NCBI GenBank assembly: GCA_023515725.1
Contig: JALDTO010000098.1
Coordinates: forward strand, 276,615 to 340,614
DNA: 64,000 bases
Source of the DNA: Amoeboaphelidium protococcarum X5
Taxonomy: Eukaryota > Fungi > Aphelidiomycota
Direction: 5' to 3'
In this document: positions 20,301 through 50,381 of the stretch, piece by piece
How the letters are laid out: each line of letters starts with the position of its first letter
How positions within the stretch are numbered: the stretch's first letter is position 1
Notes under the pieces: model-generated
Seen by the model: only the letters and a program-made list of their open reading frames with translations
The model's database searches: none
Told to the model about the DNA's origin: nothing
Position numbers and translations under genes: made by a program

Positions 20301-20504
20301 ACTCTGATAAACCTGGGTTAACACAAAAGAGCCATTTGCAGAGTATATCTGCTCATTCAACTTTCCGACAGCCTAATAAGCGTAGAAATTTCCTTTAGAA
20401 TCTTGTTTAGTAACGTACAAAGAGCCTGTGGCACTGATAGTAAAATCGACGCCAGCAGTGATTACATCGGCCAGCAGCAACCAAGATGAAACTATAAACC
20501 ACAT
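17364..20504 (-). CDS. Receptor-like protein kinase 1 (signal peptide, beta-propeller-like ectodomain, poly-Thr stalk, TM, TKL-type kinase)
   Basis: 1047-codon table-6 frame; kinase motifs 'AGGQGSIWL', 'VAKY', 'HNDIKAANYL', 'TDFG', 'RDVFA'; TM 'MISAVAAIVSGVFVIAVLIVGLY'. Confidence 0.85.
18835..19050 (-). repeat. ACN-codon microsatellite encoding the poly-Thr/Ser stalk of RLK1
   Basis: gta/gtt/gtc/gtg runs on the + strand; about 65 Thr/Ser/Pro codons. Confidence 0.9.
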
Positions 20505-20973
20505 TTTCGTATGCGAGTAATTTATTCAAAGCTTAATAGGGAGATGTAAATGAGACAAAAGCGCAAAATGACTTATAATCCGTAATCTGAACCCAATATG
20601 CATTGGAATAACCTTGGGATTGGACGAGTACAGGAATCTCTGATAGGAATCGTTATTAAATCTATTTTCATGTCTTATACCAAAATGCGATAATGAAAGT
20701 AACATCAGATACTGTATATAACATATATATCAGCTGTTTTTCGACCGCCGCAGCTGCTGAGAGTATCGTTGCGAGTGGCTTGTTTCTAATGCTATCATCG
20801 TTTCACCTCAACAGCTTTTGGGGGAGATCATACAGTGAGAATGCAACTCTCACGGTCGCGGAGACCCCGATTTATCTGCACACAGCGTCTAAAATTAAGA
20901 AATTAATATTGATCACGACTATTTTCTATTCATTTCATCGTTTCCTTTTACTATCATCATTTTTTATTATATA

Positions 20974-21380
20974 AGAAGTAATATCTTTTATTTGGGACCA
21001 AAAGTAAAACAATTTAAATTTTAACTTCGGAGAATATCTAGAAGTAAAATAATACTCACTTTTACTGCGCCATAAATGTCGCCGTAGTAAATCAAATGAT
21101 TATTTTACTTGGAGATCTTAATGGATGCCTAAAAGTATAATTACTTTTGGTCCCAAATAAAAGATTAATTAGCAAGTCAAACTTGAAATGATAACATGCA
21201 TATCTTAAGACAGAACTTGATAGTAAGATTGTGTTTAAAAAGGACCTTAAACCATGACTATCAGGATCCCAAAAAAGTTTTCAATTTTGATCCCAAATAA
21301 TGCATCAAAATGTTAATGAAACCCAACCAGGATGTCTTTGAAAGGTGTCACAGATATCTCAAGGAATCTCTAAGAAATCT
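20974..21380 (+). repeat. Left terminal inverted repeat
   Basis: Outer ~195 bp match the reverse complement of 29011-29205 with ~13 mismatches by manual count; inner ~200 bp match 28797-29010 more loosely. Confidence 0.9.
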
Positions 21381-21541
21381 CAGAAGGTGAACACAACTCG
21401 ACATATCAACCGAATGACGATGGGATAAATGTGCTGTGGTGACTTGAAATCCAACGCTGCTCCGAAATCGCTCAATCAGAACATCGGTAGCCAGATCATC
21501 CAAAAAATCAGAACGCCAATCTCTTTTTTTCAATTTTTACG

Positions 21542-22804
21542 ATGGACCAAAATCAGCTCACACCAAGAGAATGCGCCGCTAAACTAGAAGCCATTGAGAA
21601 GAAGATCGACGACTTGAGGACCAAGAATGAGTACAACGGTGTCGAAATTACTGACAATGAAGAGAAGAAGGAGATAATCGCGGATTTGAAGCAGAAGGAG
21701 AAAGAATGGAGCGCTCGACTCGATCGTGCTCAGTTCGCCTCTACTCAGAAGCCCACCTGGCAATCACCATCATTTACGCTTTCCGCCGAGCCAGCATCTT
21801 ATTCAGTGACTATTATGAATCAAAAGCAGGGCGGCGCATTGTTATTGGCTATTCCGTGTCTATCGAAGGGCAGACGATGGGATCGCGTTCTGCTCTTTCT
21901 GAAGGCCGTGTGTGGCGATTTCGATATTCAGCATTATTCCTTGTCAAGTAACAATTCTGATATCGAGCTTTCAGATGATCTGCACCTTCCTCCTGCCGAA
22001 TTCACGCTCTCCCCGATTGATGATTCTCATTCCGTGCTGACCGTTATTTTCCAACCGCTTCCTATAGTTCCCCGTAGCACGTTGTCGCGACGAACATCAG
22101 GAGCCACTACACCGATTGAAGAACCGTCATCATCATCAAGACCTCAAAAGAAACCACGAGTTGAGTCTGAAGTTGACAAGCTGGTTGTTGAAAGTACGAA
22201 AGCCTTTGGCCGCGACGCGACATTTGAAAAACGAATCTTTCAGCGGGATCAACACTGCATTATCACTCGACAATACAGGTCACTGAAAGCCTCCCATATT
22301 GTTGCTCACGCTTGGTGGATGGACCATCCTGATCGTAAAGAACGACTGCCAGAAGATATCAAAAGGATTATCCGTTCTCTTGATGGGGGTATTGATCATA
22401 TTACCAATGGAATATTTTTGGATGGATCGATTTCAGATGCGTTCGACCGAGGAGACTTTTCGTTTCAGTTTGTGGATGGGCATTACTATGTCGTTTCAAT
22501 TACACCTGACTATGATTCAATCGATGGACTCCAGGTTGATGAATGTGTGCGTAATCGCTGGGATGGCACTGTTTGGTGGTGTCCGGAAAATCGTCCCAAT
22601 CCTTATCTGATGGCATTTCATTTGCGTAATAGTGTGTTTGCTCATTGTCGTGGTGCTGCTGGTTATGATGAATTTGACACCGAAGATGACAAAGAGAATG
22701 TTAAGATTGCGAGATCGGTTGTCAGTGAGTTCTTTGAGAATTCTGAAATCGGAAGTAAGATTGCATCATCGCTTACTTCGGAAGCATTAGCTCAATTTGA
22801 ATAA
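21542..22804 (+). CDS. HNH-endonuclease-domain protein with coiled-coil N-terminus (Crinkler/CR-effector-like); cargo
   Basis: 'FEKRIFQRDQHCIIT...ASHIVA...GGIDHITNGIFL...AFD...RPNPYLMAFHLR' HNH_2-type motifs; 420 aa open in the standard code; TAA stop overlaps AATAAA. Confidence 0.75.
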   Translation: MDQNQLTPRECAAKLEAIEKKIDDLRTKNEYNGVEITDNEEKKEIIADLKQKEKEWSARLDRAQFASTQKPTWQSPSFTLSAEPASYSVTIMNQKQGGALLLAIPCLSKGRRWDRVLLFLKAVCGDFDIQHYSLSSNNSDIELSDDLHLPPAEFTLSPIDDSHSVLTVIFQPLPIVPRSTLSRRTSGATTPIEEPSSSSRPQKKPRVESEVDKLVVESTKAFGRDATFEKRIFQRDQHCIITRQYRSLKASHIVAHAWWMDHPDRKERLPEDIKRIIRSLDGGIDHITNGIFLDGSISDAFDRGDFSFQFVDGHYYVVSITPDYDSIDGLQVDECVRNRWDGTVWWCPENRPNPYLMAFHLRNSVFAHCRGAAGYDEFDTEDDKENVKIARSVVSEFFENSEIGSKIASSLTSEALAQFE

Positions 22805-23028
22805 ACTCATAAACTCTCATGGAAACTCGTATTTTAAGTTATGTCTACTATACATCATCACAGTTTATGTCCCAAACGCCCGAATAAATCAGCGAGCTCT
22901 CGTTCCATATTAACATCATTCGCTATTGTCATCACGATGCTGCTCATTTTGCCGCAAAGATGGACATCGTCAATAAAACCCTGTTTGTTTACTAACTTAC
23001 TTTCTTTCCAACAAAATTTTAGACTAGA

Positions 23029-24999
23029 ATGACCAGCTCGACGCAATCGGTGTCGGGTGAGAGTAAAGCACCATTATATGACCTTCATTGCCATCTAATG
23101 GGTTGCGGTCGATGGGACGATTTTTGGCAGAAGGAGTTGAAGGAAGCGCTGCATAGAGCCCATACGGCAAATTTTGATAAACTGAGAGGCTTAACGGATG
23201 AACAACAGAAATTGTATGAAAGTACACTACTTACGGCAGTGAAGGCGGTGGAAGAATCCGACGATAGGGACAGAGATAGGGACAGAATATCCCCAGTCTT
23301 AAAATGTGACCCTAAGGCCATTTCCACACAAATTCAAAGCGAAGCTCTGCAAACTGCTGTCAAGGAGAGTCCGAATGACCAATTCTTATTCAGCTCACAA
23401 CTGTTGGTTGACAATCGGGTATACAGTCGATTTACTCAACAAGGATTAGGTTGTTACGAGAATTTGGGTGTCATCATTTTTGCGGCAGTGATGGGCTTCT
23501 CCTCGCTACCGGTAATCATCGAAAGTGTGAAAGCTTTAATCGACGGTTTCAGTCGAACCCCAGTTATTACATTGTCATTATGGACGATTATCGTGTTTGG
23601 TGGGATTATGAGTACCAAACTAGTGATGTATCTTTTGTGCCAACGCCTACTCAGCTGCAAGATCAAGCAAAATGTCATATTCTTCAACGAACGTCTCTGG
23701 AAATTTGACATTTATCGTGAAGCACTCCTGGTTCAAGATATTTTTGATTGTCTGGGGATGGAGGGGATGAAACAGTTTTTCGAATCAACTGACGATGCAT
23801 GTGTCTTTACGCCTGGATTTTACCCGAAATGTTTCTTTATGAAGGATGCCCTATATTTTAGAGACATAACGGTTCTGCAACGATTGATTGAAGAAGTGGT
23901 CGAGAAATACAAGAAGGCTGGAGTTGTATATGTCGAGTTCTCTGTTAGCGTCAAAGATTTGTATAAGTATCCGTGGGTGTTTCATCAGCTCTGTGTCAAA
24001 GCGAAGGCTGAAGAAAGAGCCGCGCAAACCCATGACAAAGACGGGGCGGTGAAAGAGAAATCAGAGTGTAAATACCGCTTTTTGGCTGCTGTTGCTCGCA
24101 TGGAGCGAAGATTTGCGTTGAATGATGAGGATGCTATTGCCATAAACAGTAACACAGAGTCGGTAGATGGTTGGTTGGACAGGCAATGTCCTAATGATCC
24201 AATGTCTCACTACTTTGACAGCATGAAAGGTGGTGATGAACTTTTGAAAATGGTTCGCGGTCTCGATTGGGTGTCAGATGAATACGGGTACCCATATTGC
24301 CCGTTTTACCGTGAAAAGTTTTTCGAGTATTCTCGTCGGCAAATTGAACGTAATGCAGAGAAAGGGTTTCCACCATGTTTCGGATTGCGTCCACATTTGG
24401 GTGAAGTGACTGAGAAAGGTTATGAGGAGTGGGTTGATAAGAATGGACGAAAAGTACCTGGTTCGATTTACTTTGACGTTCACAAGAAAATTATCACCAA
24501 GATTGCTGAACGAATGATGCAGGGTCAATTGGTTCCGTATGATCTTGAAGGTAAAAGTTACTATGTTGGTATGCGGTTTGGCCATGGCGTAGCACTACTT
24601 GTCGATTCGCACTTTCAGAAAGGGATGGTAGTGGAACTCAATTACACCAGCAATAAGAGATTGCTTCGATTTCTCGGTTGTCACGAGTTTGTAGAAGCGT
24701 CCAAAAATAGCCTTGTGAATGAATTGATTGCCAACATTGTTATAGGTACGGATAATGACGGCATATTTCCCTGCATAACAGGGGATGAACAGTTAATTAA
24801 AGCTGAACTTCTGAACCTAAAAAAGGACGGCTTCGTCGATACCATTCCCGACCGACCTGATCAACAAATTGTTGCTCAAGCATACCAATGTACTTTCAAT
24901 TACTATGATGGTTGGTCACCCAGATTCCTCTTGCAGGCAAAAACTCATACAGTTTTGCCTTTGGATACAAATGCTGATCAATTGGCGCCCTACCCTTAA
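23029..24999 (+). CDS. Adenosine/AMP deaminase-like amidohydrolase; cargo
   Basis: Metal/catalytic motifs 'DLHCHL', 'VVYVEFS', 'HLGE', 'RFGHG', 'VELNYTSN', 'GTDNDGIF'; 656 aa open in the standard code; stop TAA-TGA. Confidence 0.75.
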   Translation: MTSSTQSVSGESKAPLYDLHCHLMGCGRWDDFWQKELKEALHRAHTANFDKLRGLTDEQQKLYESTLLTAVKAVEESDDRDRDRDRISPVLKCDPKAISTQIQSEALQTAVKESPNDQFLFSSQLLVDNRVYSRFTQQGLGCYENLGVIIFAAVMGFSSLPVIIESVKALIDGFSRTPVITLSLWTIIVFGGIMSTKLVMYLLCQRLLSCKIKQNVIFFNERLWKFDIYREALLVQDIFDCLGMEGMKQFFESTDDACVFTPGFYPKCFFMKDALYFRDITVLQRLIEEVVEKYKKAGVVYVEFSVSVKDLYKYPWVFHQLCVKAKAEERAAQTHDKDGAVKEKSECKYRFLAAVARMERRFALNDEDAIAINSNTESVDGWLDRQCPNDPMSHYFDSMKGGDELLKMVRGLDWVSDEYGYPYCPFYREKFFEYSRRQIERNAEKGFPPCFGLRPHLGEVTEKGYEEWVDKNGRKVPGSIYFDVHKKIITKIAERMMQGQLVPYDLEGKSYYVGMRFGHGVALLVDSHFQKGMVVELNYTSNKRLLRFLGCHEFVEASKNSLVNELIANIVIGTDNDGIFPCITGDEQLIKAELLNLKKDGFVDTIPDRPDQQIVAQAYQCTFNYYDGWSPRFLLQAKTHTVLPLDTNADQLAPYP

Positions 25000-25050
25000 T
25001 GAATGCAGGTATGCCTTTACCACTGGGTTTTAATGATGCCAATAAATCCT

Positions 25051-26085
25051 TTACTTTCTTGATCTCTTACTTTGTCTTCTATCAGGCTCAATACCTTCAC
25101 GTTCACGAATGCGTTTATCAGCGCGGTAGATGTCAAGTTGCTTTTGCCTCAGTGAATTGTCAATGTCTTGACTTAGCGGTGACACCTTTAGCACTTCAAA
25201 CAAGTTGAATTTCTGGTGCCGACCTTCCACTTGAACACTATTTAATCCCACCTCCTCAACAATGTACACCTTTAACGTGAATCGCTGTCCCTCTTTCTCA
25301 AACGCGCCTCGTTTATTCAACAACCTGACAAAGTCCCCACGTTTGATGGCCGAATCAATAACTTTATTGTTGTGCGCAATACTTTTCCTAATCAGTTCCG
25401 CTTCATCAAATGTATCTAATCGCTCGGGTATCTTTGCGATGCTGCTATGAAATGATGAGTTGTAATTTTGAACAAAGTCTCCCAGATTATCAATCCATCT
25501 ATTGGTATTATTACGCGTCAGGAACTTTTCAATCATCAGTTTGATCGTGCGATTGAACCTCTCCGCAATCCCTAAACACTTCTTATCATCCTTCCCACAA
25601 TACTGGGCAGTGATATTATGCTGCGACATCCAAGATGTTATTCGTTTGTTTTGAAACTCTTTACCATTATCAGTCTGTAAAACTTTGATCGGTCTTCCAT
25701 CGTTGACTGATTGTTGTCGGATTAGATCAAAGGCTGCCAATACAGTTTCTTGAGTTTTATCTTTCAATGCTTCAACATATGCATATTTGGTGTTGACATT
25801 GATAACGTTGAGTAAGATATGATAGTTTGAATTCTGCTTTTGGTATCGTGTCAAGAAGGTCAGATCTGCCTGGTAATGCCCGACTTTACCGTGGATCTTT
25901 GGAACCGATTTAGAGTTCTTTGGTTTCTGAAACACTTGGCTTATTGGATTTTCAGCAAGGAACTCCTTAACCTGTTTCATTGTGATTTTTGGATTCTGCT
26001 CCTTGGCGCGTTTCAACAGCTTATCAGCTCCAACAAACCCTGTTTTGGGATCATTGAAAAGTGTACTTAGTAATTGTTGAGACAT
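25051..26085 (-). CDS. Retroviral-type (RVE) integrase, Polinton clade
   Basis: 'YQADLTFL' (D), 'LQTDNGKEF' (D), 'GIAERFNRTIK' (E), 'YNSSFHSSI', 'GDFVRL..RGAFEK'; likely start MSQQLL at 26085; ends TAA. Confidence 0.92.
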   Translation of the reverse strand: MSQQLLSTLFNDPKTGFVGADKLLKRAKEQNPKITMKQVKEFLAENPISQVFQKPKNSKSVPKIHGKVGHYQADLTFLTRYQKQNSNYHILLNVINVNTKYAYVEALKDKTQETVLAAFDLIRQQSVNDGRPIKVLQTDNGKEFQNKRITSWMSQHNITAQYCGKDDKKCLGIAERFNRTIKLMIEKFLTRNNTNRWIDNLGDFVQNYNSSFHSSIAKIPERLDTFDEAELIRKSIAHNNKVIDSAIKRGDFVRLLNKRGAFEKEGQRFTLKVYIVEEVGLNSVQVEGRHQKFNLFEVLKVSPLSQDIDNSLRQKQLDIYRADKRIREREGIEPDRRQSKRSRK

Positions 26086-26125
26086 GTATATATCAAAAAA
26101 GATAATCTTTATCAATAAATAATAA

Positions 26126-27922
26126 TTAATTACTGGATCGATGACCCATTGGAACTGAGTTGTTTCCAATGAAATGGCGTCCTTTCCATGGGGTGGAATT
26201 AATTTGTTTTGTTAATGCATCCAGCTTCAGAATACTGAAATTATCTACGTTTTGCTGTTTTGAGCTCTTGTTTAAATTGACGCGTTTGAAGTCTCTTTGC
26301 ATTTCAATATTGACCGGTTCCCCTCGCATCATCAATTCAAAGTTTTTCATGTTTAACTGATCGTTGGGTATGCCTTTGCCTCGTAAGTGATACTTGATCT
26401 CCTCAACATCGCCTTGTTTTTGAACGTACTCAAGAAAGTATAACTTTGGGGCAATCCATCCACCATACAGGATTTTACTCACTCCAGGCAGGTCATCACT
26501 TATGCCTCCGATCTCATTATCCAGAGTTAATCCCTTCAAGTTCTTGACGTGAATTTGAATACTATCTGTATCTGTGTAGTAAGGCGCGTTTTCAAGCTGA
26601 TTTTTTGTGTCAGCGCTATTGAAATATAGATTAGTCTTTTGTAAGTAATCGAGCATTATCCTGCGACTGTACCCCAGAATGAAACTTCCCAGATAGCAAG
26701 GCTTTGAAATCTTTGTTGCAAGTTTGGATTCATCCTGATAGGTAAGGTAGAAGCTTCCATCGCTTAAATATCGCATTGATACTCCACCGTATTTGATGTG
26801 AAACTTGATGAATTCTTCGTGAAGGTAAATGATCACGTTCTCGTCAAGAATGGGCCGTTGGATGGTTTTACCATATAGTCCATTCATCATCAACTTGGCT
26901 AGTTTGTACTGGGCACTGCCCTTTGTAGCATTTTTCTTGAATTCATACAGGTAGTTGATGTAGTTATTGAACACGTTCTCAGTCTGCTCCCAGTAATATC
27001 CCTCCAATATATCTATTTGATACCCATTCGTGAGAGCGTTATCAATATCAACACTGTTATATGTTCCACATCCATCAACCAAATCCCATAATAATCGCCC
27101 ATCACTTCTCCTTGGCAAAATAGCATCAATCAAGTTTCTATTTGTTACATATTCCACGCGGTAGATGCCAAATTTTGAACACTTATTATTCTGTTGGATT
27201 GACTGGTTAAAGTATTTGCATGATGGAGTGCCAGGTCTCAGATGTACTGGAATACCTACTGGGAATTCGTTTTTCATGGCAGCTGGATACAAGGAATTCA
27301 CATCTGCATTAACTAAGTAGTCATCAATATCTTCAAACTTGATCTGCTTACGGATATAGGGCTCACGTTGGCTACTCACAAACTTGTGTTTGTATTTGTA
27401 TGTTCTCCCTCCATAAATTGACTCTCTAAAGAACTGCTCTTGCTCTGGGGTGGGTAGAAAAACTGGATTGTTGCTTTCCTTATACAAGAAATCAACCCAT
27501 GCAGCGTAAGTCAGCTTTGATGTTGATAGAAACTTGTAAAGATTAACACCGAAATTCTCGAAACAACTTTTGTTTAATCGCTGGGACAGTTCTTTCAATC
27601 CCATTACATCGCCTTCCAAGTATTTCAAACAATCTGTTCGGTCATCATTGCACATGTTATCCCACTCATCTCCCAATATGTAATCAAAATCACCTTTCTG
27701 AACTGCACACTCTAACTCCTCGAGGTTCTTTCTCAACGTTCCTGTAATGTGTTTCGATATATCAAAACACGAGATATTTCCAATACTGGCTTTGAGAATG
27801 GCTCCGTTGTTTAACAGCAGCGTATCCAGCTTGATATCCACATTATCGCTATGCATCTGATTGAGTTTCTTGACAAATTCGTAGTGATCAAATTTGCTGC
27901 CGTTGAATGCATTGATGATGAC
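26126..27922 (-). CDS. Protein-primed family B DNA polymerase, 5'-truncated (no ExoI)
   Basis: ExoII 'AFNGSKFDH' upstream of the called ATG, ExoIII 'YLEGDV', motif A 'DVNSLYP', B 'KLMMNGLYGK', C 'YTDTDS', 'APKLY', 'RGKG'. Confidence 0.88.
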   Translation of the reverse strand, partial: VIINAFNGSKFDHYEFVKKLNQMHSDNVDIKLDTLLLNNGAILKASIGNISCFDISKHITGTLRKNLEELECAVQKGDFDYILGDEWDNMCNDDRTDCLKYLEGDVMGLKELSQRLNKSCFENFGVNLYKFLSTSKLTYAAWVDFLYKESNNPVFLPTPEQEQFFRESIYGGRTYKYKHKFVSSQREPYIRKQIKFEDIDDYLVNADVNSLYPAAMKNEFPVGIPVHLRPGTPSCKYFNQSIQQNNKCSKFGIYRVEYVTNRNLIDAILPRRSDGRLLWDLVDGCGTYNSVDIDNALTNGYQIDILEGYYWEQTENVFNNYINYLYEFKKNATKGSAQYKLAKLMMNGLYGKTIQRPILDENVIIYLHEEFIKFHIKYGGVSMRYLSDGSFYLTYQDESKLATKISKPCYLGSFILGYSRRIMLDYLQKTNLYFNSADTKNQLENAPYYTDTDSIQIHVKNLKGLTLDNEIGGISDDLPGVSKILYGGWIAPKLYFLEYVQKQGDVEEIKYHLRGKGIPNDQLNMKNFELMMRGEPVNIEMQRDFKRVNLNKSSKQQNVDNFSILKLDALTKQINSTPWKGRHFIGNNSVPMGHRSSN

Positions 27923-28287
27923 CTGAGAATAGGTCGAATAACTGAGCAGGTGATTAATGAATTGTTCTTTTCCTTGCTCGCGAAATAAGCTAAATCCCGA
28001 ATTGGCATTCTTTCATTCATGCCGATTAGATATCCATCATTCGATAATTTGATTTTCAGTCGATATTCAAACTTCCTTTTAAAGTCTGTGTAGTCCATTT
28101 GATAGTAATCATTCAGCAGATCAACTAATGAATATGTGTCATCCTCAGATATTACCATGATATTATTCAGTTTTTTTCTGAGGCATTGCTTCTTACTATC
28201 AAAGTACAAACTAAACTCATCAAAGATATAATCTATAGTAGGAAGCCTCTTTGGCTCTTCGAAATTAAGTTTGTTTGTACGAACCAT
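27811..28287 (-). CDS. Element ORF, probably the pPolB N-terminal remnant joined out of frame
   Basis: 158 aa standard-code ORF preceded by the same AT-rich motif as the integrase; its last ~35 codons read the PolB ExoII region in another frame. Confidence 0.5.
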   Translation of the reverse strand: MVRTNKLNFEEPKRLPTIDYIFDEFSLYFDSKKQCLRKKLNNIMVISEDDTYSLVDLLNDYYQMDYTDFKRKFEYRLKIKLSNDGYLIGMNERMPIRDLAYFASKEKNNSLITCSVIRPILRSSSMHSTAANLITTNLSRNSIRCIAIMWISSWIRCC

Positions 28288-28344
28288 CGATGTATATAAT
28301 AGGAAATATATTTATTACCAAAATAATTAATTAATACCTCTTAC

Positions 28345-28790
28345 GTTTGACCTTTCGAGCTTTGAGCTTTGACCTTTGATCTATCTTTGACCTTTGCACC
28401 TTTTGACCTTTCACCTTTGATCTATCTTTGACCTTTGCACCTTTGCACCTTTTGACCTTTTGACCTTCAATTATTTAATTATTTTCTACAAAATTTTCAT
28501 TCCCAATATATAGCACGAGGTTGCATCACACATAGCTTGATCGGAAGTTTCAACTTTGACCTTTTTCACCTTTAGCAAATGATCTAATGACCTTTCGACC
28601 TTTCAACTTGTGATCTTTAACCTTTTGACGCTTCACCTTTGCATCTTTAAACTTCTACGCCTTTGTTTTGCACAATCTCGCATTCTATTGAGCTTTATGA
28701 GAATATTCAACTTTGACCTTTGCGCCTTTGACAAATGATCTAATCCCTAATCCTTTGACCTTCGACCTTTGACATATCACCTTTTGAGAT
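28345..28790 (+). repeat. Degenerate (T)TGACCTTT tandem array in two clusters
   Basis: Many units of tttgacct/tttgcacct/tttcacct at 28345-28470 and 28555-28790, all on one strand. Confidence 0.8.
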
Positions 28791-28796
28791 TTATTT

Positions 28797-29205
28797 GCGA
28801 TTTCTTCAAGATTTCTCGCTGATATCTGTAACGCGTTTCAAAGACATCCTATGTTGGGTTTCATCCAAATATTGTTGCATTATTTGAAATCAACATTGAA
28901 TGCTCGGCTGCGATCTCTTTATACGTGGTTTAAGTTCATTTTAAGACGATCTTGTTATTATCAAACTCAAGACGTAGTTTAAGTACTACTTGAGGGTCTA
29001 ACCATTCAAATTAATATTTTATTTGGGACCAAAATTAATTACACTTTTAGGCATCTATCAAGATCTCCAAGTAAAATAATCATTCGATTTACTACGGCGA
29101 CATTTATGGCGCAGTACAAATGATTATTATTTTACTTTTAGATATTCTCCGAAGTAAAAATTTAGCTTGTTTTACTTTTGGTCCCAAATAAAAGATATTA
29201 CTTCT
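28797..29205 (-). repeat. Right terminal inverted repeat
   Basis: Reverse complement of the left TIR. Confidence 0.9.
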
Positions 29206-29247
29206 TATATATCACTGTTCTAAAGTAATCAAAGAGCCAATTGCTCA

Positions 29248-32200
29248 TCATAGATTGACCAAATCATTCAATACGCGTTGAGCATGTACACGCGTAAATA
29301 TATTTTGATCCCAGGCCATATCAATTATTTGACAATATTTGTCGAGCCTTGGATCTTGGATGGTTGGTTGAATTTATACTCTGCCACCTGCACAAACATA
29401 CTCTTATATCTGTTCTTTAGTGAACCCCTTCCAAGCCGGCTGTCTGTTCAGCAGTTCCGCCAGAATGACAGCACCTGCAAAGACATCGCGCTTGGGTTTC
29501 AAATCATCAGATACAAGTTGCTTCATCCAAACTTCCGGTGCAGCGTATGTAGGAGTGGAACCAGCCAGTGCATTCCAATTCAGCCCGGTAACCGTCTATG
29601 ATGTGCCCAGCAGGGTACAAATACCAAAATCGGTCAGGCAGACGCGTACCTGTCCAGATGAAGTGTCCACTAGATAATTGGCAGCCTTGATATCGTTGTG
29701 GACGACACCTGCCGCGTGTAGCACTACCATAGCAGAAAATACGTCAATAGAGAGAGACCTAATCAGTTCAAAGCTCCAAACAATTTGCTAACTTAACACG
29801 CTCTTCATATTTACAAAATCATCCAATGATCCATTTTGGTAATAGAACATCAGCATAACCAAATTCTCAGCATCAAAACCTGCCAATTTTGCAATGTGAG
29901 CACAATCTTTGAATCTCCACATCAATGCAACCTCTTGTAAGAAAGCCTCTGCACTAACCTTATTAGTAGAATACTTTGCAACCATAGTCTAACCATCACA
30001 TTAACGGAAAGGATGATCAGACGGAACAGTAAGTATCTAGACAAGCCAAATACTACCTTGACCGCCTGCATTTAGCAGAGAATTAGGAATTTTACGAAAA
30101 TTCTGCCCCTCACTAAGCTTTAAGAATCCGGGCACCGAAATTTCAAATTAGGTAGAGACCATAGTAGTGCCACCCTACATTTATGTGCTTCGAATCTCCA
30201 TGACAGTGGAGGAAGCTGCAGAGGGAGCGACACTATTCTGAGTTAACGTGCTGGCTTTAGTGCTAATCTTCTTGGTACGACTAAACTTTTGACGCGCATA
30301 TAAAGCAACAGCTAATACTGCGACTACAAAGATGCCAGAAACAATAGCTGCAACTGCAGATATCATTGACGACTAATTTTGTTGAGCCTAAGGCCCAGAT
30401 TGATCTCGAGCACCCTCATTTGAATTCGTGGATACAGATTAGCCTCCAATAGAACCACCAATACCAAACGTTATTAGCCCATTAATTTAAGAGCTAACTG
30501 CAAAAGATGAGCTCGATGACAATTTAACTGGCGTCTTTATAGAATAACTCAGAATACCAGCTAAAGATGATACTGTATATGTAACGGCAGTCGATGTAGA
30601 TAGGGAGTGAGAAGTATATGAGAATTATGTAGCAGAATCATTGGTAACGGAGCCATTAGTAACAGCAGTAAATTACAAGGACGTAGAGAACGAGGTGGCA
30701 GTCGGTGTAGAAGTAGTGGTAGTAGTCGTTGTTGTGGTTGTGGTCGTGGGCGTCGGAGTACTAGTTGTGGTTATTGTACTCGTCGTGGTGCTAGTGGTAG
30801 TGGTTGTCGTAGTAGTTGTTGTAGTAGTCGTCGTAGTCGTAGTAGTGGTCGTGGTTGTTGTAGTAGCAGTGGTGTACAGCACGGTAGGTACAGGTAGGAA
30901 ATCCAACAATCTCGCAACACCTCTCTGGATAGGAATGGCAACTTGGCCACCTCTTGTATCATTAAACAAAACGCCCTGTCCATCAGTGATAAAGCCAGCA
31001 AGCATTTTGTTCTACGGAAGCCACTAAAAATAGCCAAATCTTGTATTTTGTGTTGCATTGTACAATAAACTGCGACCCCAAATCTTGCCCAGATTATGAT
31101 AAGCAAACACAATACCATACTGAAACGGGAACTAACGATTGTATTGCGTAGAAATTACACCAGTAGTGTTAATACTCAAAACAGCAGCATCAGAATATAA
31201 AGCATAAAACAAATTATCCTCATTGTCCATGAGCATGTTGCCTGTAGTGGATCCAGCACCACTTACGCTGGACCACCATGTAACAGATGTCCCGCCATTC
31301 AGCTTGAAAAAATAAGCCCCAGATACACCGGTTGCACCCATTTATAACACGGGAGTATTAACAACATTAAAAACAGTGAACGGACCACTGGAGGATACCT
31401 GTTAAATCGGAGCACCAGCATTATCAAAAGTTAGCTAAATAGGCGCCTAATCGCCTGGGCCACTAAATCTCCAAAAATATAAGAAAGCTCCAGTGGGATC
31501 AAATACTATCAAGTTGACATCGATGCCAGAATCATAAAGAGTATAAACTTCAAAGCCTTTGGTATCCGTGAGAGCCGTACCTGACTATGCATACTGCTGA
31601 TAATAAAGCACACCTGTGGGTCCTATAGTTAAACGCGAAAATACAGCGAAGCTACCATCATCCACATTATAGATGTGATTGAGGTTATTGTCCATCATGA
31701 AGATGTGCCCGCCACCATTACTGGTTGCGACAATGGTACCATTATTGTCGTACATATTCACTGGATTGGTTGGCCATCCGCCGTAAGAGTTCCACATCTG
31801 TACCGCAAACCATCCGTTTGGCCCAAGCACAGACCAATTTGGAACATTATATGAACCAGGGGCATACAGTTGAGCTGTGCGGAGCAAAGTACCGTTGGGA
31901 TGAAACTTGGCAACGACGCCTTAAGTGCCACTCGGGATGTTGATAGACTTCACAGGCTAATGATTAGTGCTATAATACTTAAAGTCTTGCGATGTTGTCC
32001 AAGTAGAAAAGAACAGATTATCCTGCGCGTCAACAAAAGGACCTTAACCCCAATCATCACCGCTACCAGCAATGTGGAAGTACCATAATAGATTACCTTA
32101 GGTGTTAAATTTCATGTAGATACTGTCTGAACCACCTCCAGCGTAGAAAGTTGTTGTTGTCACAGACCCATTCGCAGAATAGATCTACTCACCAACTTTA

Positions 32201-32340
32201 TATACATATGCACGTGCGTAAAAGTTACCTGCGGAGTCAATAGTGGAGAGTTCATAATCACTCGAGCTTCGAATAGTAAATTCATTAGAAGCAACAGCCA
32301 AGTTGATTAGCAATGCAGTCAAAGCCAGGCGAATATTCAT
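29248..32340 (-). CDS. Receptor-like protein kinase 2 (paralog)
   Basis: 1031-codon table-6 frame from MNIRLALTALL to ...DLVNL-TGA; same architecture; kinase C-lobe nearly identical to RLK1. Confidence 0.85.
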
Positions 32341-32517
32341 TGATGGCAAATTATTCGTAAATAATGACGATAAAGCACGAAGTCTGTACTGTATGCTGAT
32401 GTAATAGTAACACAAGTTGTCTGATTGGTGCATTAATAGCAGGATTGATTGGCCATTCTTAGGCCGAAAAAGCAACACATGAAGCTAACACGGTAAATAG
32501 ATTATTTTACTTCAAAT

Positions 32518-35500
32518 TCATTTCAAACCATAAAGAGAATTCAGAACTTACATTGCGTGCGGCCTTAACGTGACATCCTACTCCCAAGCAGTGTAAATGA
32601 TCGCAAGTAACGCGTCATTCTTCGGGTCTTCAAAGCATGGAGTCAAAGCAGGACGTTCGCCGGCCAAGACAGCTTGACTTATTAGATCTCTGCTTTGTCC
32701 TGCCCATGCCACTTTTCTGTTGACCATCTCAGCCATTATGACAGCACCAGCATAGACGTCACGTTTCATTCTCTGTTAATCAAGCAATACTTGCTTAAGC
32801 CATACTTCAGGTGCCGCGTACATCGCAGTAAAGCCATTAAGCGCATTCCATGTCATACCAGTAACTGCTTTGGATGAACCCAAGAGGGAGCATATACCGA
32901 AATCGGTAAGACAAACGCGAATTTAACCAGATGACACATCGACGAGATAATTGCCAGCCTTAATATCATTGTGCACGACACCTGCTTGATGAGTAACCTG
33001 AATAGCGGCAAAGACGTCCACAGACAATGAATACACCAAGTCGAAATTATAAGTTACTAGACGGCTAATTTCGCTCTTACTTTCGATGAACATTTCAAGT
33101 GAACCTTGCTAGTAATGAGCCATTAAAAGGATCATATTCAGTGGGTCAAATCCGACTATTTTTGCTATGTGTGCGCTATCCTTAAATCGCCACATAAGAG
33201 CCACCTCTTACAAGAAAGCTTCAGACTAGCCCACGCCATTACTATACTTGGCAACAAATTTCTCGCCGGGCTGTGGTCTTAAAGGATATTAATAAGGTAG
33301 ATCCAGTATTTAAGCCAGCCATATAGAACCTTGGCCACCAGCGGTGAGTTGAGAATTAGGAATCTAACGAAAGTTGAGCCCTTCTGTCAGTCTCATGAAC
33401 CCAGGAACTGAGATCTCATAGGATGTCGGAACCAGTGTCGTTCCGCCTTGCATATTCGTAGCCCCTTGATGTATAGTGGTAGTTAATGCAAAAGATGCAA
33501 GGCTACTTTAAGTATACGTACTTGCCCTGGTGACTTGTGAGGTGATCTTAACACGGCGACGATGTAATTTGTGACGAGCATATAAAGCAGCTAGTACAAC
33601 TACCAGAACAAAGACAGCAGCTATTATTGCCACGATAGTCGATAACATCGAAGATGAGCCTTATAGAGCTGATGAATTAGACTAATTTTGAGTAGAATCA
33701 TCCACACCAGTTGTCGATTGAACCTTACTGTACGCAAAGTCTCCCAATCCAAAAGTGACAACGCCAACAGATAAGGAAGTCTTAATAGTTGTAAATGAGG
33801 ACGACTACAGCAATGGTTATGTCGTCTGTTCGACTAGCGACGTATTTGTCTTTGTGCTTGTACCAAAAGCTACCGTTGATGATGCATTCGCAATACTAGT
33901 AAATAGACCTGCGGCGACATTCCAGGTACTTGAAGATGCAGCGGATGCGAAAGGCGCAGTATTATTATTAGCAGTAATTGAAGTCGTGGTAGTAGGAGTA
34001 ATAGTGGAAGTTGTTGTCGTCGTCAATGTTGTCGTAGTCGTTGTGGAGGTGGTAGTAGATGTTGTAGTTGTTGTTGTTGTTGTGCTTGTAGTCGTCGTTG
34101 TACTTGTAGTAGTAGTTGTTGTTGTCGTGGTGGTTGTGGTAGTTGTCGTCGTCGTACTAGTCGTAGTACTGGTGGTGGTAGTCGTCGTGGTCGTTGTAGT
34201 GGTAGGTACCATAGGAAGCAGATTACCAATTTTTGCAATGCCTTGAGCGAAGGCGTAATTCTACGTAGTACCAGAATCTTCAATAATGTTCACAGAACTT
34301 CCACTTGTTTGGAAAGCTACTAGAAAGTCGCGATTTGCCAATACAAAACTTCCAAAGAGAGTAATACTTTACGCAGAAGTGTAGATTACAGTTCGGTTGA
34401 GGAAAGAACCAGCTTCATTAAAAACCATAATGATTGCGTACTGACCGGTAAATGGATGCACATACTAATTAGTGACAACACCATTGTTGTTAAAGCTAAT
34501 CGTAGCGGCTGCGGACACACCGCTAAAGACCATATTGTCATTTGTATCCAAAGCGAGAGATAATCTTACAGCGGCAGAGCCGGTTATAGACGACCATTTC
34601 AATATAGATCTGCCACCATTAAGCTTGAAGACATAAGATCCGGATACTCCAGCTGCTCCAAGCGTCATAACTGCAATGTTAGAAGCATTGTAAGCAACAA
34701 AAGGACCATTGACGAACACCGAAGCATAAACAGCACCAGACTTGTCAAAAGAAACTCCACCAGGTATTTCATCACCTGTACCAGCAAATCGCCAATAGTA
34801 CTAGAATGCACCGCTGGAGTTGAATACCAACATAGGGCAGTCCACTCCGCTAACTAAAGGTGCAGAAATCAAGCGACCTGTGGAATCAGTCAAGCTCACA
34901 GCAGTTTACTGATTCATTTGCAAAAATTAATCCCCATTAGCGTTAATTGTCATTGTGACATCCACGGCGAAAGTGTTATCGTTGTGGAAGTACACAAGAT
35001 TTAGATTATTGTCAAGCATGAACCTATGACCAGTGCCGCTACTGGACGGGCCAGCAACATTATCATTATTATAATAGACGACTGGATTGTTTTACCAACC
35101 ACCGAAGCTGTTCCATATATGAACCAATACCTGTCCATTAGGACCCACGACTGAACTCTGAGGCACATTCCACGAGCCAGCCGCGTCCAAACGCGCAGTC
35201 CTTAACAGAGTGCCATTACTAGAAAATTTGGCAACAACTGCCTATGAGCCACCACTTAAAGGAATAGTTTTGGCCACTTGGTTAGTTGTTGTGTAAATTT
35301 TGAAATCACTAGACTACTCCCATATTACTGCAATAATGTTATCAGAGGGATCAATGTTAAGAGAATACATATAATCGTCATTAACACCTGTCATCATGAG
35401 ATGCCACTACAACGCGCCAAACATATTATACTTTGCAATGAACGATTCAGCACTTCTCTGATAAACCTGAGTTTACACGAATGAGCCATTAGCAGAGTAT

Positions 35501-35658
35501 ATACGCTCATTCGCGACTCTGACATGTGAATACGTGTAGAAGAAGCCTTTCGAGTCTTGTTTAGTTGCCCATGTACCCGTGGCAGCCCTGACTGTAAAGT
35601 CGACGCCAGCAGTGATTAAGTTGGCAAGCTGCAGGGAAGCTACCACGATAGCCCACAT
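32518..35658 (-). CDS. Receptor-like protein kinase 3 (paralog)
   Basis: 1047-codon table-6 frame from MWAIVVASLQL to ...LYGLK-TGA; 'HNDIKAGNYL', 'TDFG', 'RDVYA'; poly-Thr at ~33980-34203. Confidence 0.85.
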
Positions 35659-36444
35659 TCTTAGAAATAGTTACATATCGAATCAAACTATTTAAAAATT
35701 ATAATCTTATAATTATCAACTTAACCAATTATATGATGTAAAAAGGAGCACCGTAACGAAATTTTGGGACTATATGCAGCGAAGTGGCTTGGGATTGGCC
35801 AGAATAAGCATCTCTGATTGGAGCCTTAATTATAACTAATGGGTATGGCCTCTTTCATTAACTATTAATCTTTGGCCAAATTCACTGCATAACGCTGTAT
35901 TAGACTTTATATATAATGGCTATTGTTTCAGTAATACGCTATTTTTGCTTTAAAAAATACGATGAAGAATATAGTAACAAAGAAGTGATGGGAGCATGAC
36001 ACTTTAACAGAATCGCGCCAAAGATGATTAGAAAGTAGAATTTTATTGCAATATAGATATATTTCGCAGCTATTATTGATTTGTTCAGTTAGAACCTCTA
36101 TGGCTGCATCTGCGTAAACTCCATACACAATCGATAGTTTGATACAGTACCACAAAGCAACCGCGCGAAATTGAATTCAAAAACTGAGAAAAGGTCCAGT
36201 AAATTCTATATAAGTTATACTAGCAGCAATTAGAACAAGGGAGTCAGTGTACAGTAGAGTTAAATACTTTGTTGTTTCATGTCTTGATCATAGCGGCGGA
36301 AATCATTCCAATCAACGGGCGACGGTCAACTGTCTACTCATTCATTCATTCTCGCTATTTCGCCCCATCGCAACAGACTGAAAGTGAGAGCCGGTGAAAC
36401 CATCAGGATTCCTCTCTCCCTCTCTCGTTGCTCCCAGTACAACA

Positions 36445-47000: not shown

Positions 47001-47936
47001 ATGGTAAAGAAGGATAAGAAGGGAAAGTCTCCAAGTCAGACGCGTGCCTCAAAGATACCCGAGGAGCCAATGCTGAAGAATGTCGTCGACAAGAGAGCCA
47101 AGAAACAGAATAGCAAGCCAGTTGCTGCTGATGAGCGTCCATTGAGTATGTTTGTCCAGCCTGGCTTGTAGCTGCAGACTCGTGAACGCGCTCAGTCCAG
47201 TGCTCCATCCGTTGTTTCAAACTCCACTGATGCAAAATCTGGCGTGACTGACAACACCGCAAATGCATCCAAGAAGACTCCAGCTGCACCTACCAACTCT
47301 GCTCCTCTGACCGTGTCATCAAATGCTCAATCATCTTCAAAGGCTGTACCTAATGCTGGTGCGCAGATGAAGAATCCAACATCCATGCAAGAGGCTATGC
47401 AGAATTTCAAATTGGCAAAGAAGTAGGCGGAGAAAAACCAAAAGTACAAGCTTAACAGTACTCAGCGTCTGATTGATGCCATGGCTGATGTGATGGTTCT
47501 CCTTCTGACTCGTGCCATGTGTGAGGGTATTGACGAGAAGATAGAGATCCGTATTTACAAGAAGCCGCAGAACATCGGCTCTGGTATGGCCGTCGCTGAA
47601 TATCGTGATGGCCGTGATGCCAAGGAGAAGGGTCAGAAGACTACCAATATTCAAAATTTGGTTGATAACAATGATGATTTCTCAATCTTGCTGTCTAATG
47701 AGCTGACTCTGCGCTCCATCAATCAGCAAACTCCTGATGGATACAAGGCTTTAGATTGTGCAGACAACTGGAAGTAATTCTACGATGTCGTGCAAAAGTT
47801 TAGCTTATGGTTCAGATTCTGTCTGGCAGTCCACAAGCGCATCGGTTGGAAGTGTGTCCTTGACAGATCCATGTTGAACGGTATGGATAGCAGATTCTTG
47901 GGCTTTGTCACTATCAAGATTTCCAAGTTTGTCTGA
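47001..47936 (+). CDS. Hypothetical protein (312 codons)
   Basis: Open under table 6 with host-like codon usage; ends TGA followed by AATAAA at 47949. Confidence 0.65.
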
Positions 47937-47959
47937 AGATTCTTTATGAATAAAGTGTC

Positions 47960-48100
47960 ATTGAATTAATAGATTGGTAAATTTCATCTTATCATCAAGT
48001 TTCTTAACTGATTTAACTCGCTTACAGTCTATTTCATCGGTTTGTCCGACAAACATTACTGTATATATCAGGCGCGCCTTTCGGCGCGGCAATTCCATTA
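47960..48100 (-). ncRNA. Candidate Fanzor omegaRNA (scaffold + 3' guide)
   Basis: CGCGCC-GAAA-GGCGCG hairpin over the last codons; nested TACAGT/ACTGTA and GTTTGTC/GACAAAC stems just downstream; position as expected for TnpB/Fanzor. Confidence 0.5.
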
Positions 48101-50381
48101 AGGTCTGCTACCATGCATCGCGTAATGGCGGACTATTTGAGCCATACTCCTGTAAGCATTAACGTCCCGATCTACAAAGACGTCACATCCAGTGTTTTGG
48201 CAGTTTGGGCAAACTCCAAATCTTGATTGGACTCTTCGGTTAAAACGATCAGGACATTCTTACGATAGGATTTCTGGACCATCAGCTTTGATGCAGACAG
48301 TTTAAGCCCGGCGACGACCAGGCAGTATCTTCTTTGCCTTCTTGTGTCGGCACCTCATCACCACTTCATGCTCCCATTGAAGATCTGCATGACATAATGA
48401 GTGCTGCTTACTAGTGTGGAACTCCGGCGTTATAACTACCAATGCCCGACGACTGAATTCAAACGCGAATTTTCTCACCGGAACAGGAGGATTACCACGC
48501 ACGTGCTTCACACCAGCGTTACCAAGAGCAATTACCGGAGGCTTATCTGGAGGTGAAAACTTGCCAATAGATTTACGCAGTTCGCGTTTCCTCTTCTTTG
48601 CAGCTTTACCTCGGCGCCGATCGTTGATTTTAGGCACTGGTGGCTTTGGTCTGCCATACATCATGTTGATGACTTTACCAAACGCAGACTTGGTCGCGCA
48701 AAATCGTCGGAATCTCCAATTACGATGGAATGATCTTGAGTAGAAGGCATAGACGTCCTCAAAATATCTGATGTAAACATCGAGATACTACTGGCAAGTG
48801 TGTGATTAGGCCATATCTTACTCCATCAGCGTGATTTCAGTTGGTTTGATATGCAACAGATGGGCTTCAGACTCTGTAGTCAATGCAAGACGTTACCAGT
48901 ATCCAGCAGATATGTGGCCCGTTTCTTTTAGCTCCTTCTTGGCTTCTTTTAGCGTAATTGCACCATCGACGTCCGCGTCGTCGCCCCACACCAGTACGTT
49001 CTTCTTACCAGGGTCAACGCCAATCAATCGAGAGCCATCTAATCTTTGTTGGAGATTCCGACAGTTTTCCAAAGCAAAAGCCCCAACGATTACTTGAGAC
49101 ACGTCAATGCTTCGTGCTTTTCTCTGCAGGTCTGAAGCTTCATTTGCATACGCTTTCCCACCTTAATCTGAAACAGACACGGAGCACGCAAAACGATCAG
49201 AGGTGATACTGACACTGACGTTTTTAGATTGAGCCATCCGCTGTTAAAGACCCAAAACTTTAAGCCTTAGGATACATTACCGTTGATCGTCCTCCTCTTT
49301 CGACTCCTCCCCCAACTGATTGCCCAGGCGATACTGTTCAAATCCCCACTGAGCCAAAACTTTATTGTCAAAGCAGATGTGGCGCGGAACATCGGTACCA
49401 GTAGGGAAAATCTTGAATGATGGCAAGCCTATCTCCTTGAGAGTTTAACGCTAATACATCAGATATTGGACCAAAACTTTCTAGCCCTCCTAATTCTGAA
49501 ATGCATGGTGTGCTCTTGATGGCATGTATGTTTGATGGGTATCACGCTACTTCATCTTACCCGATTTCTATCGCTTGAAACCGATGAGTCCATGCAGCTG
49601 ACTAGGAGATTATGCTTTTCTTTTACTGTATCTCCTTCTTGGAGCTCTGTCTTTAAAAGAAGTGGTGACAATATCCAATAAATGGTGACGATGCATTGAG
49701 ACCAAGTGCCGAACTTCTTCAACTTATAACAATTGCAGCAACTCGTCCTTAATAGCAGCATCTTATTGCGCAATTGTCTCCTCATCTTCACCAGCATCGT
49801 AATCAGGAGGCAAATGTATCTGAGTCGCGGGATTAATCTCCAAGTACTCGCCCCCAAAGTGTTCCATCGTGTTAACAGCTTCTTCAGTCAGCAAAGAGTT
49901 GAGCAGCTATAGAAACACGGTAAGCCTTCGGCCTTTTACATTAAAGGCCTCCATTTAAGCTTTAATCACCTTCTTCTAGTAGACCCATATAGTTTCAGTC
50001 AGATGCCAGGTGATAGCTTAAATAATCTTACGCGCTTGAAACACGTACAGGTTAGGATTTGGACCAATCAGGCTTTCGTGCCTCAATCTCTATCGCACTT
50101 CAGGAGCGATTGTTTCAGCCAGTATTCGTGTGTACATTGTCACGATGAAACGCAGAGTTGCAAAGATACTCCAGCATTGACGCGAAATACTGCTAATGAG
50201 ATAGCTCAGGTAGTGCCTTGCCGGCTTCATTCCATACATTAAGACTGAGATAGATCAGACGGGATGCAAAGGTGAGGTGCACTGAGCTCAGTCGAATCTG
50301 TGGTATCAATCTCTCTTTATCACCATCGCTAAGATTCAAGACAGTATTTAGTTTGCATTTACGTGTTACTTTCTTTGCCAT
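48068..50381 (-). CDS. Fanzor1-like (eukaryotic TnpB-derived) RuvC nuclease, ~770 aa, host code, one frameshift at ~50115-50190
   Basis: RuvC-I 'IGVDPGKKN' (D 49013), 'ALGNA', rearranged RuvC-II 'TPEFHTSK' (E 48422), Zn ribbon 'CPNC', RuvC-III 'VDRDVNA', C-terminal 'GSRPQWNCR'; 48068-50137 free of TGA. Confidence 0.85.

What the first reader, a model, noticed from the sequence alone, without database searches (positions are those of the whole stretch)
47960..48100. Candidate omegaRNA scaffold overlapping the Fanzor stop codon
On the coding strand a GC stem with a GAAA tetraloop (48073-48088) covers the last codons. It is followed by an outer TACAGT/ACTGTA stem (48058-63 / 48023-28) enclosing GTTTGTC-G-GACAAAC. 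Such structure is striking in AT-rich DNA, and TnpB/Fanzor guide RNAs are known to overlap the ORF 3' end. The guide would be the flank below ~48020, running antisense towards the neighbouring gene's 3' UTR; the exact boundary is unknown.
Basis: partly seen in the sequence, partly recalled or inferred. Interest (0 to 1): 0.7.

Follow-up and report, generated by a model that had tools for sequence, protein, structure and literature searches.

The report
Fanzor1 guide RNA at transposon end
This is the right end of a 2.85-kb multi-copy jumping gene in an algal parasite; its two hairpins likely form the guide RNA of the element's Fanzor1 DNA-cutting enzyme, a new example of a known system.

Summary
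The hairpins are real (z about -4.3) and lie at the right end of a 2,847-bp element (48023-50869, minus strand). Read with TAA/TAG=Gln it encodes a Fanzor1: a family profile hits SpuFz1 at E=4e-36, and an 86%-identical paralogue from Amoeboaphelidium protococcarum is already listed as FZ1 in Saito 2023's supplement. Sequencing contigs give five other flanks starting at 48020-48023 and an empty allele. Both ends read TA|CAGT, with imperfect 27-bp inverted repeats: a Tc1/mariner-like, non-autonomous element. The predicted RNA matches SpuFz1's layout: SL1 (48073-48088) in the last six codons, a 9-nt linker holding the stop codon, a 41-nt SL2 closing on the terminal TA, then a guide of about 15 nt from 48022 down. 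Corrections: the inner stem is 8 bp with a 5-nt loop, not the 1-nt-loop palindrome; the boundary is 48023/48022; nothing supports an antisense role. This copy's gene is frameshifted, so its RNA would act with sibling copies' protein. Expression, binding, covariation and cleavage are not shown. New member of a known kind.

The parts
48023..50869 (-). Non-autonomous Tc1/mariner-like element carrying Fanzor1; 2,847 bp counting both TA dinucleotides (48025-50867 without them)
   Evidence: Empty-allele joint 48013->50873/50874 in 3 of 4 runs laid (X1, X2, X15; 2 samples); summed contig depth steps up near 48023 and down near 50890; terminal repeats
48023..48049 (-). Right imperfect terminal inverted repeat, including the TA; also the 3' half of SL2
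   Evidence: 17 of 27 letters match the left end in register, in blocks of 6 and 7
50843..50869 (-). Left imperfect terminal inverted repeat, including the TA
   Evidence: no fold above chance at this end (z -0.7)
48023..48024 (.). TA at the right end, likely target-site duplication; closes SL2
   Evidence: TA|CAGT at both ends; the X1/X2 empty allele has one TA at the equivalent place (table 5c)
50868..50873 (-). Left junction ACAT|TA: the TA plus the upstream bases from which the TAM is predicted
   Evidence: Sequence; one junction only; analogy to SpuFz1 CATA
48068..50381 (-). Fanzor1 gene (table 6). Intact siblings are 771 aa. This copy is frameshifted near 50127 and has private substitutions, including the Gly of the WED (S/T)DG motif
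   Evidence: (table 4)
48073..48088 (-). Predicted omegaRNA stem-loop 1: 6 bp with GAAA loop; a 7th pair 48090-48072 is possible with a bulge (probability 0.38)
   Evidence: synonymous-codon null gives 3.3% (1.2% usage-weighted) as stable
48064..48072 (-). Predicted 9-nt linker holding the TGA stop; 48067 is the one listed difference between subfamilies inside the scaffold
48023..48063 (-). Predicted stem-loop 2, 41 nt: 6-bp outer stem, 4x4 internal loop, 8-bp inner stem, 5-nt loop
   Evidence: z -4.56 on the minus strand against -2.20 on the plus strand
48089..48107 (-). Likely 5' leader of the scaffold; the 5' end is not fixed (about 48097-48107)
   Evidence: Subfamily differences begin at 48108; X15 contigs branch at 48103; one divergent X2 contig differs at 48096, 48101 and 48105
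48008..48022 (-). Predicted guide of about 15 nt: host flank, different in each copy
   Evidence: Five other flanks (table 7); length by analogy to SpuFz1; no other exact match in the window
47001..47936 (+). Neighbouring host ORF, 311 aa, no Pfam family at cut-off; not part of the element
   Evidence: present on the empty allele

Best explanation
The two hairpins at 48023-48088 lie at the right end of a multi-copy, TA-flanked element that encodes a Fanzor1, and they likely form the scaffold of its omegaRNA. Shown: element ends, multiple insertion sites, an empty allele, protein family, predicted fold. Inferred mechanism: a transcript running through the gene's 3' end and out of the element is trimmed to about 90-100 nt. 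SL1 (in the last six codons) would dock on the RuvC/TNB face, SL2 would close on the terminal TA, and the next ~15 nt of host flank would be the guide. The RNP would cut DNA carrying a TAM ending in TA followed by the guide sequence, that is the empty or excised form of that insertion site; repair from the filled copy would restore or spread the element. The TAM should read at least one base 5' of the TA, because the element's own end (..CTG-TA) precedes the guide sequence and would otherwise be cut; the one left junction seen (..CAT-TA) predicts a TTA- or CATTA-like motif. This copy's gene is frameshifted, so its RNA would be loaded in trans on protein from intact siblings. Movement would need a Tc1/mariner-type transposase encoded elsewhere.
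For: Family profile matches SpuFz1 (E 4e-36), GtFz1 (5e-27) and PpFz1 (2e-23) far above Fanzor2 (3e-6). KAI3645781.1 (P0002, 86% identical to P0001) is labelled FZ1 in Saito 2023 supplementary file 3. The D-E-D motifs are present in the window protein and all 7 of the 771-aa cluster members. Of 12 loose-end rows shown (of 14), 5 give different flanks starting at 48020-48023 in three runs. An empty allele joins 48013 to 50873/50874. SL2 is 41 nt from U to A directly before the guide, as is U35-A75 in SpuFz1. SL2 folds better on the coding strand through G-U pairs. TIR and TSD form part of the scaffold in Fanzor1 RNAs (PMC10711439). The X8 contig has 1 listed difference (plus probably 1 unlisted) in 85 scaffold letters against 11 in the next 133; against 91 of 930 pooled coding letters p=0.018.
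Against: No RNA data: expression, ends and protein binding are not shown. No compensatory change was seen, because the stems barely vary in the listed differences; differences near contig ends are hidden (a degenerate X2 contig has 6 differences in 48025-48089, only 1 placed). The local conservation test is weak (p=0.08 with 2 differences, 0.03 with 1), the 48107 boundary was chosen after seeing the data, and 27 of the 85 letters are also a TIR and 40 are coding. The whole two-stem region folds almost as well on the plus strand (z -4.06 against -4.29). SL1 has 6 sure pairs where solved Fz1 RNAs have 7. The empty allele seen is not a match for this guide.
Confidence: 0.85

Rival explanations
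1. The outer stem and the inner palindrome are DNA-level features: a terminal inverted repeat plus an internal inverted copy of its first bases that serve transposase binding; the GC hairpin is a by-product of the codons. No functional RNA.
For: 48023-48049 is the right TIR. The 7-bp palindrome with a 1-nt spacer suits a protein dyad better than an RNA loop. The region folds on both strands. Conservation can be partly explained by TIR and protein constraint.
Against: The left end has no comparable fold (z -0.7) and lacks the palindrome. SL1 is in the top 1-3% of synonymous encodings. SL2's inner stem needs G-U pairs of the coding strand. In the papers read, tested Fanzor1s carry an RNA at this position.
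Confidence: 0.07
2. The scaffold is a real omegaRNA in the family, but at this locus it is a silent relic: the copy is decaying and makes no RNA that is used.
For: Frameshift near 50127: all contig depth laid there in X1 and X2 carries two more letters. Six private amino-acid changes recur against nearly all siblings, one in the (S/T)DG motif. The empty allele in the same sample differs at the TAM side and in the first 9 guide positions, so no target is seen.
Against: The scaffold of this copy equals the high-depth contig over 48023-48240 (0 differences), the 5' region is retained, and gene-less ghost loci of SpuFz1 give working RNAs (PMC10432273). The frameshift lies in a dinucleotide run and could be an assembly error.
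Confidence: 0.3
3. The RNA guides Fanzor (or acts alone) as an antisense regulator of the convergent neighbouring gene.
For: Geometry only: the guide lies 72-86 nt beyond the neighbour's stop, on the opposite strand.
Against: Every copy has a different flank, so the geometry is an accident of insertion. An AATAAA lies at 47949-47954, about 55 nt before the guide, so overlap with the mRNA is doubtful (inference). SpuFz1 was reported to cleave only target dsDNA.
Confidence: 0.02

Closest known systems
SPu-1 element, SpuFz1 and its omegaRNA (Spizellomyces punctatus; PDB 8GKH; PMC10432273, PMC3627910)
   Same: Single-ORF Fanzor1 element with ~30-bp TIRs and TA duplication; two-stem scaffold; SL2 of 41 nt from U to A directly before the guide; best PDB hit of the family profile.
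   Different: Here SL1 lies inside the last six codons and the stop codon in the linker, whereas the SpuFz1 RNA lies downstream of the gene; TIRs are imperfect (17 of 27); linker 9 nt against 6; protein 771 against 638 aa; the junction reads CAT-TA against CA-TA; TAA/TAG read as Gln.
GtFz1 omegaRNA (Guillardia theta; PDB 9CER)
   Same: Fanzor1 whose RNA overlaps the C-terminal coding sequence (17 aa).
   Different: GtFz1 RNA is 150 nt with four stem-loops; here two are predicted.
Mariner-type Fanzor1 elements such as PUl-4 (Bao and Jurka 2013, PMC3627910)
   Same: Fanzor1-only element with TA duplications and TIRs.
   Different: No matching autonomous mariner was identified here; the host genome was not available.
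A. protococcarum KAI3645781.1, listed as FZ1 in Saito 2023 supplementary file 3
   Same: Same family: 86% identical to P0001, same last 12 residues.
   Different: Listed as a protein tree node only; I found no description of its element ends, RNA or TAM in the texts searched.

Membership tests
Fanzor1 protein | RuvC triad with DPG, rearranged Glu before the zinc finger, and RD motif | tested here: met
   GVDPG, PEFHTSK and DRDVNA in the window protein and 7 of 7 771-aa siblings; aligned to the SpuFz1 motifs through the profile
Fanzor1 protein | Closer to Fanzor1 than to Fanzor2 or TnpB | tested here: met
   Profile A3 (43 sequences): Fz1 chains E 4e-36 to 2e-23, Fz2 3e-6. P0001 alone had no PDB or Pfam hit. 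No tree was built.
Fanzor1 protein | TDG motif in the WED domain (PMC10711439) | tested here: inconclusive
   SDG in intact siblings, TDG in relatives, SDR in the window copy
Fanzor1 protein | Intact reading frame in this copy | tested here: not met
   The N-terminal ~82 codons are out of frame with the rest near 50127
Fanzor1 omegaRNA | Lies between the gene's 3' end and the element's right end, including TIR and TSD | tested here: met
   (DNA position only)
Fanzor1 omegaRNA | Conserved scaffold followed by a variable flank | tested here: met
   Five different flanks from 48020-48023; 1-2 differences in 85 scaffold letters between subfamilies
Fanzor1 omegaRNA | SL1 of seven base pairs, then SL2 before the guide | tested here: inconclusive
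   Predicted SL1 has 6 firm pairs and a possible 7th (0.38); SL2 41 nt; prediction only
Fanzor1 omegaRNA | Covariation in the stems | tested here: inconclusive
   No placed difference falls in a stem except an insertion at 48060 in one degenerate X15 contig; no alignment of diverged copies could be fetched
Fanzor1 omegaRNA | Expressed as a small RNA, bound by the protein, extending ~15 nt beyond the TSD | not testable with these tools
   Only DNA or untyped contigs were available
Fanzor1 omegaRNA | Guides TAM-dependent DNA cleavage | not testable with these tools
   Needs a TAM screen
Tc1/mariner-type non-autonomous element | TA target-site duplication | tested here: met
   TA at both ends; one TA at the equivalent place in the X1/X2 empty allele, whose adjacent letters differ. 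Only one left junction was seen.
Tc1/mariner-type non-autonomous element | Terminal inverted repeats | tested here: met
   Imperfect, 17 of 27, same spacing at both ends
Tc1/mariner-type non-autonomous element | Partner DDE/D transposase with matching ends in the genome | not testable with these tools
   No genome held. That CAGT is a Tc1-like terminus is recalled, not from a call.

The most novel reading that the evidence does not exclude
A young, active Fanzor1 drive in a natural host: at least seven near-identical intact copies share a dual-coded omegaRNA whose protein-binding stem is written in the last six codons, and the empty alleles that persist beside filled ones are those whose TAM and seed the guide cannot cut. 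At this site the empty allele differs from the filled allele's junction in most of the 9 seed letters and the 4-5 TAM-side letters, while neighbouring DNA differs by about 7%. If this holds across the family's loci it would be population-level evidence that Fanzor cutting shapes its host's alleles.
Probability: 0.12. Interest if true: 0.7.

Novelty: new member of a known kind. Interest (0 to 1): 0.33.

Why it matters
It turns a catalogued but unstudied Fanzor1 protein family into a defined system: exact element ends, scaffold, guide start and a TAM prediction that can be tested directly. The role of Fanzors in their own hosts is still open, and a recently spreading family with filled and empty alleles in the same isolate is good material for testing homing. 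As a discovery it is modest: Fanzor1 omegaRNAs at right ends, overlap with the coding sequence and TA-flanked carriers are all published.

Tried and rejected
Table 11 broke the gene into pieces; table 6 gave the ORF. No whole genome is held. Rfam gave only a sub-threshold snoR113 match at 47609-47706, outside the feature. Scans for related loci found none: metagenome contigs, viral contigs, prokaryote genomes; alignment A4 was too diverse to scan with. The AlphaFold2 model from a 4-row alignment had pLDDT 33 and was not used. No RNA holder was listed among 18 runs; this is no evidence on expression; run X8 has no recorded type and was used only as sequence. X5 and X6 covered only parts of the ORF at depth 2-5 and were not used. 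Guide look-alikes in the window with up to 3 mismatches were at chance level (4 found, 2.2 expected). The TIR pattern with 2 mismatches hit only the two ends, but the pattern was built from them and 33 of 100 shuffles gave 2 or more hits, so that count is not evidence. The Atlas feature search pointed to clusters with the Cas12f1-like TNB family on 42% of members, with recognition below its threshold: a lead only. Earlier scan findings: none. Rejected: the 1-nt-loop palindrome as an RNA stem; pairing of the linker with the flank (48071-48067 with 48008-48012, probability about 0.6), because the flank differs in every copy. For the pooled coding divergence (91 of 930) I used 4 X15 pieces and left out the more divergent ones (records 8, 10, 11), which makes the test conservative.

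Full report
Setting. Table 11 fragments the genes of this window; NCBI table 6 (TAA/TAG=Gln) gives long ORFs, including 48068-50239 on the minus strand, 723 aa. Its relatives are hypothetical proteins of Amoeboaphelidium protococcarum: clusters of 10, 14 and 4 members at 98%, 81% and 40% identity over the searched region. The 10-member cluster holds the window's own protein (P0009) and seven 771-aa proteins that differ from each other by 2-12 residues, so the family is young.

The protein. P0001 alone hit nothing in Pfam or the PDB. An HMMER search gave 63 relatives; a 43-row alignment (3 cluster representatives plus 40 of the 63 hits) matched SpuFz1 at E 4e-36, GtFz1 5e-27, PpFz1 2e-23, and Fanzor2 only 3e-6; 23 of 43 members match the Cas12f1-like TNB domain. 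The three RuvC motifs are present. KAI3645781.1 (P0002), 86% identical to P0001, is labelled FZ1 in supplementary file 3 of PMC10432273. The window's copy is damaged: the siblings' start lies at 50381 in another frame, and all contig depth laid at 50126-50127 in X1 and X2 carries two more letters in a dinucleotide run. It also has private substitutions, one changing the Gly of the WED (S/T)DG motif. Contigs drop rare variants, so these may be real copy-specific changes or assembly errors.

The observation. The GC stem with a GAAA loop and the outer TACAGT/ACTGTA stem are present as stated. The fold of 48015-48100 has z -4.29, 0 of 200 shuffles as good, and the two best of 348 local windows lie here. 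The inner element is misdrawn: the predicted stem is 48053-48046 with 48040-48033 around a 5-nt loop. SL2 alone has z -4.56 on the coding strand and -2.20 on the other; the whole region differs little between strands (-4.29 and -4.06); the left end is unstructured. Of 27,648 synonymous encodings of the last 8 codons, 917 fold as well as the native one (3.3%; 1.2% weighted by the gene's codon use).

The element. Contigs of 6 of the 18 listed runs were laid. An empty allele joins 48013 to 50874 (X1, X2; one sample) or 50873 (X15) with 15-16 other letters between. A contig of depth 1,377 begins at 48023, against 59-75 for single-site contigs in the same run; depth is not a copy number but shows many copies. 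Twelve of 14 loose-end rows were shown: five give unrelated flanks starting at 48020, 48021 and 48023 (X2), 48021 (X15) and 48023 (X8); two at 48025 (X2, X15) resemble each other and look like one older insertion whose TA has changed. Both ends read TA|CAGT and match at 17 of 27 letters in register. The X1/X2 empty allele has a TA nine letters from 48013, the same distance as in the window. This is the anatomy of a TA-duplicating, TIR-bearing, Fanzor1-only element as described for SPu-1 and PUl-4 (PMC3627910). Left flanks of other copies were not among the rows shown, so only one left junction is known.

Conservation. The X8 contig over 48023-48240 has 13 differences; 12 are placed: 48067 (linker) and 11 in 48108-48240. 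X15 shows the same pattern, and its piece counts imply one more unplaced difference in 48023-48042. Fisher p is 0.08 locally (2 of 85 against 11 of 133) and 0.018 against 91 of 930 pooled coding letters. The boundary was chosen after the fact and TIR and codon constraints overlap it, so this is supportive, not decisive. RPQWNCRAERRA is unchanged in all 16 proteins of the two clusters that reach the C-terminus (of 21 examined), while the residues just before it vary. No compensatory change was seen.

Comparison. In SpuFz1 the scaffold is 75 nt: stem 1, a 6-nt linker, stem 2 from U35 to A75, then a 15-nt guide. Here: SL1, 9-nt linker, SL2 of 41 nt from U48063 to A48023, then variable flank. SpuFz1 and PpFz1 have one stem between SL1 and the guide and SL1 has seven pairs. 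TIR and TSD are part of Fanzor1 scaffolds and the RNA runs about 15 nt beyond the TSD. GtFz1's RNA overlaps 17 codons. Each feature here therefore has a precedent.

Mechanism. Shown: ends, copies, family, predicted fold. Inferred from the papers above: transcription through the right end, trimming, binding, TAM-dependent cutting. Inferred from my background knowledge of TnpB and the listing of the bioRxiv abstract: cutting of vacant sites followed by repair from the filled copy. My own inference: the TAM must include a base 5' of the TA to spare the element's own end, and the single junction suggests TTA or CATTA. The guide's antisense position to the neighbour is incidental.

Unexplained. The empty allele differs from the filled allele's junction at 8 of 9 seed positions (ungapped) and on the TAM side, while 47897-48013 differs at 7 letters and 1 gap in 118 and 50874-51000 at 9 in 127 (X2). 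The two X15 empty contigs also disagree with each other there (agreement 0.77). A diverged haplotype or a complex indel explains it as easily as selection; SpuFz1 cuts 16-21 nt from the TAM, so simple repair scars would not fall in the seed. One locus cannot decide.

Novelty and literature seen. Full-text search for Fanzor with Amoeboaphelidium gave 0 papers; for the species with 'transposable' and 'genome' 0; one search gave one unrelated listing. PMC10432273: passages, section 10, supplement rows (all 12 protococcarum rows; file 2 unreadable). PMC10530073: passages; supplement search 0 hits. PMC11423790: passages and section 5. PMC10711439: passages; its supplement has 112 Amoeboaphelidium rows, 2 seen, and none of the two accessions asked. 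PMC3627910: passages. Unread supplements and non-open papers could hold a description of this RNA. Verdict: real, correctly interpreted in outline, new member of a known kind; interest 0.33.

Noticed in passing
window 20968-29211: Polinton/Maverick-like element: ~415-bp inverted repeats at 80% identity enclosing ORFs for a protein-primed-type DNA polymerase B (26093-27856), an rve integrase (24916-26220), an HNH_2 protein (21542-23032) and a 727-aa ORF without Pfam hit (22819-25002). The family label is from recall.
   Followed up: partly
window 17364-20504, 29248-32433, 32518-35676: Three tandem ~1,050-aa proteins with an N-terminal hydrophobic stretch, a Thr-rich tract, a likely membrane segment and a C-terminal kinase domain; the Polinton-like element lies between the first two.
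   Followed up: partly
window 50842-50856 and 50940-50954: A 14-of-15 inverted match between the inner part of the left TIR and the flank 70 bp outside the element (I6); perhaps a remnant of an older end or chance.
   Followed up: no
contigs laid on window 48058-48263 and 49172-50307: Diverged copies with internal deletions in X1, X2 (and X15 for the first); the first removes SL1 and the stop codon but keeps 24 letters of SL2 (table 5).
   Followed up: no
contigs laid on window 48023-48103: Summed depth falls after 48089 (X2) and 48103 (X15), more than the listed continuing contigs explain; may be gene-less ghost copies that keep only the scaffold, or overlap and adapter artefacts.
   Followed up: partly
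right flanks at window 48021-48022: Four of six flanks seen begin with AG after the TA, and a contig with that start has depth 280 of about 1,377 in X2; possible mild target preference, but the listing favours flanks that resemble the window's.
   Followed up: no
PMC10432273 supplementary file 3: Twelve A. protococcarum rows, nine labelled FZ1, from several unrelated-looking families: this genome is rich in Fanzors.
   Followed up: no
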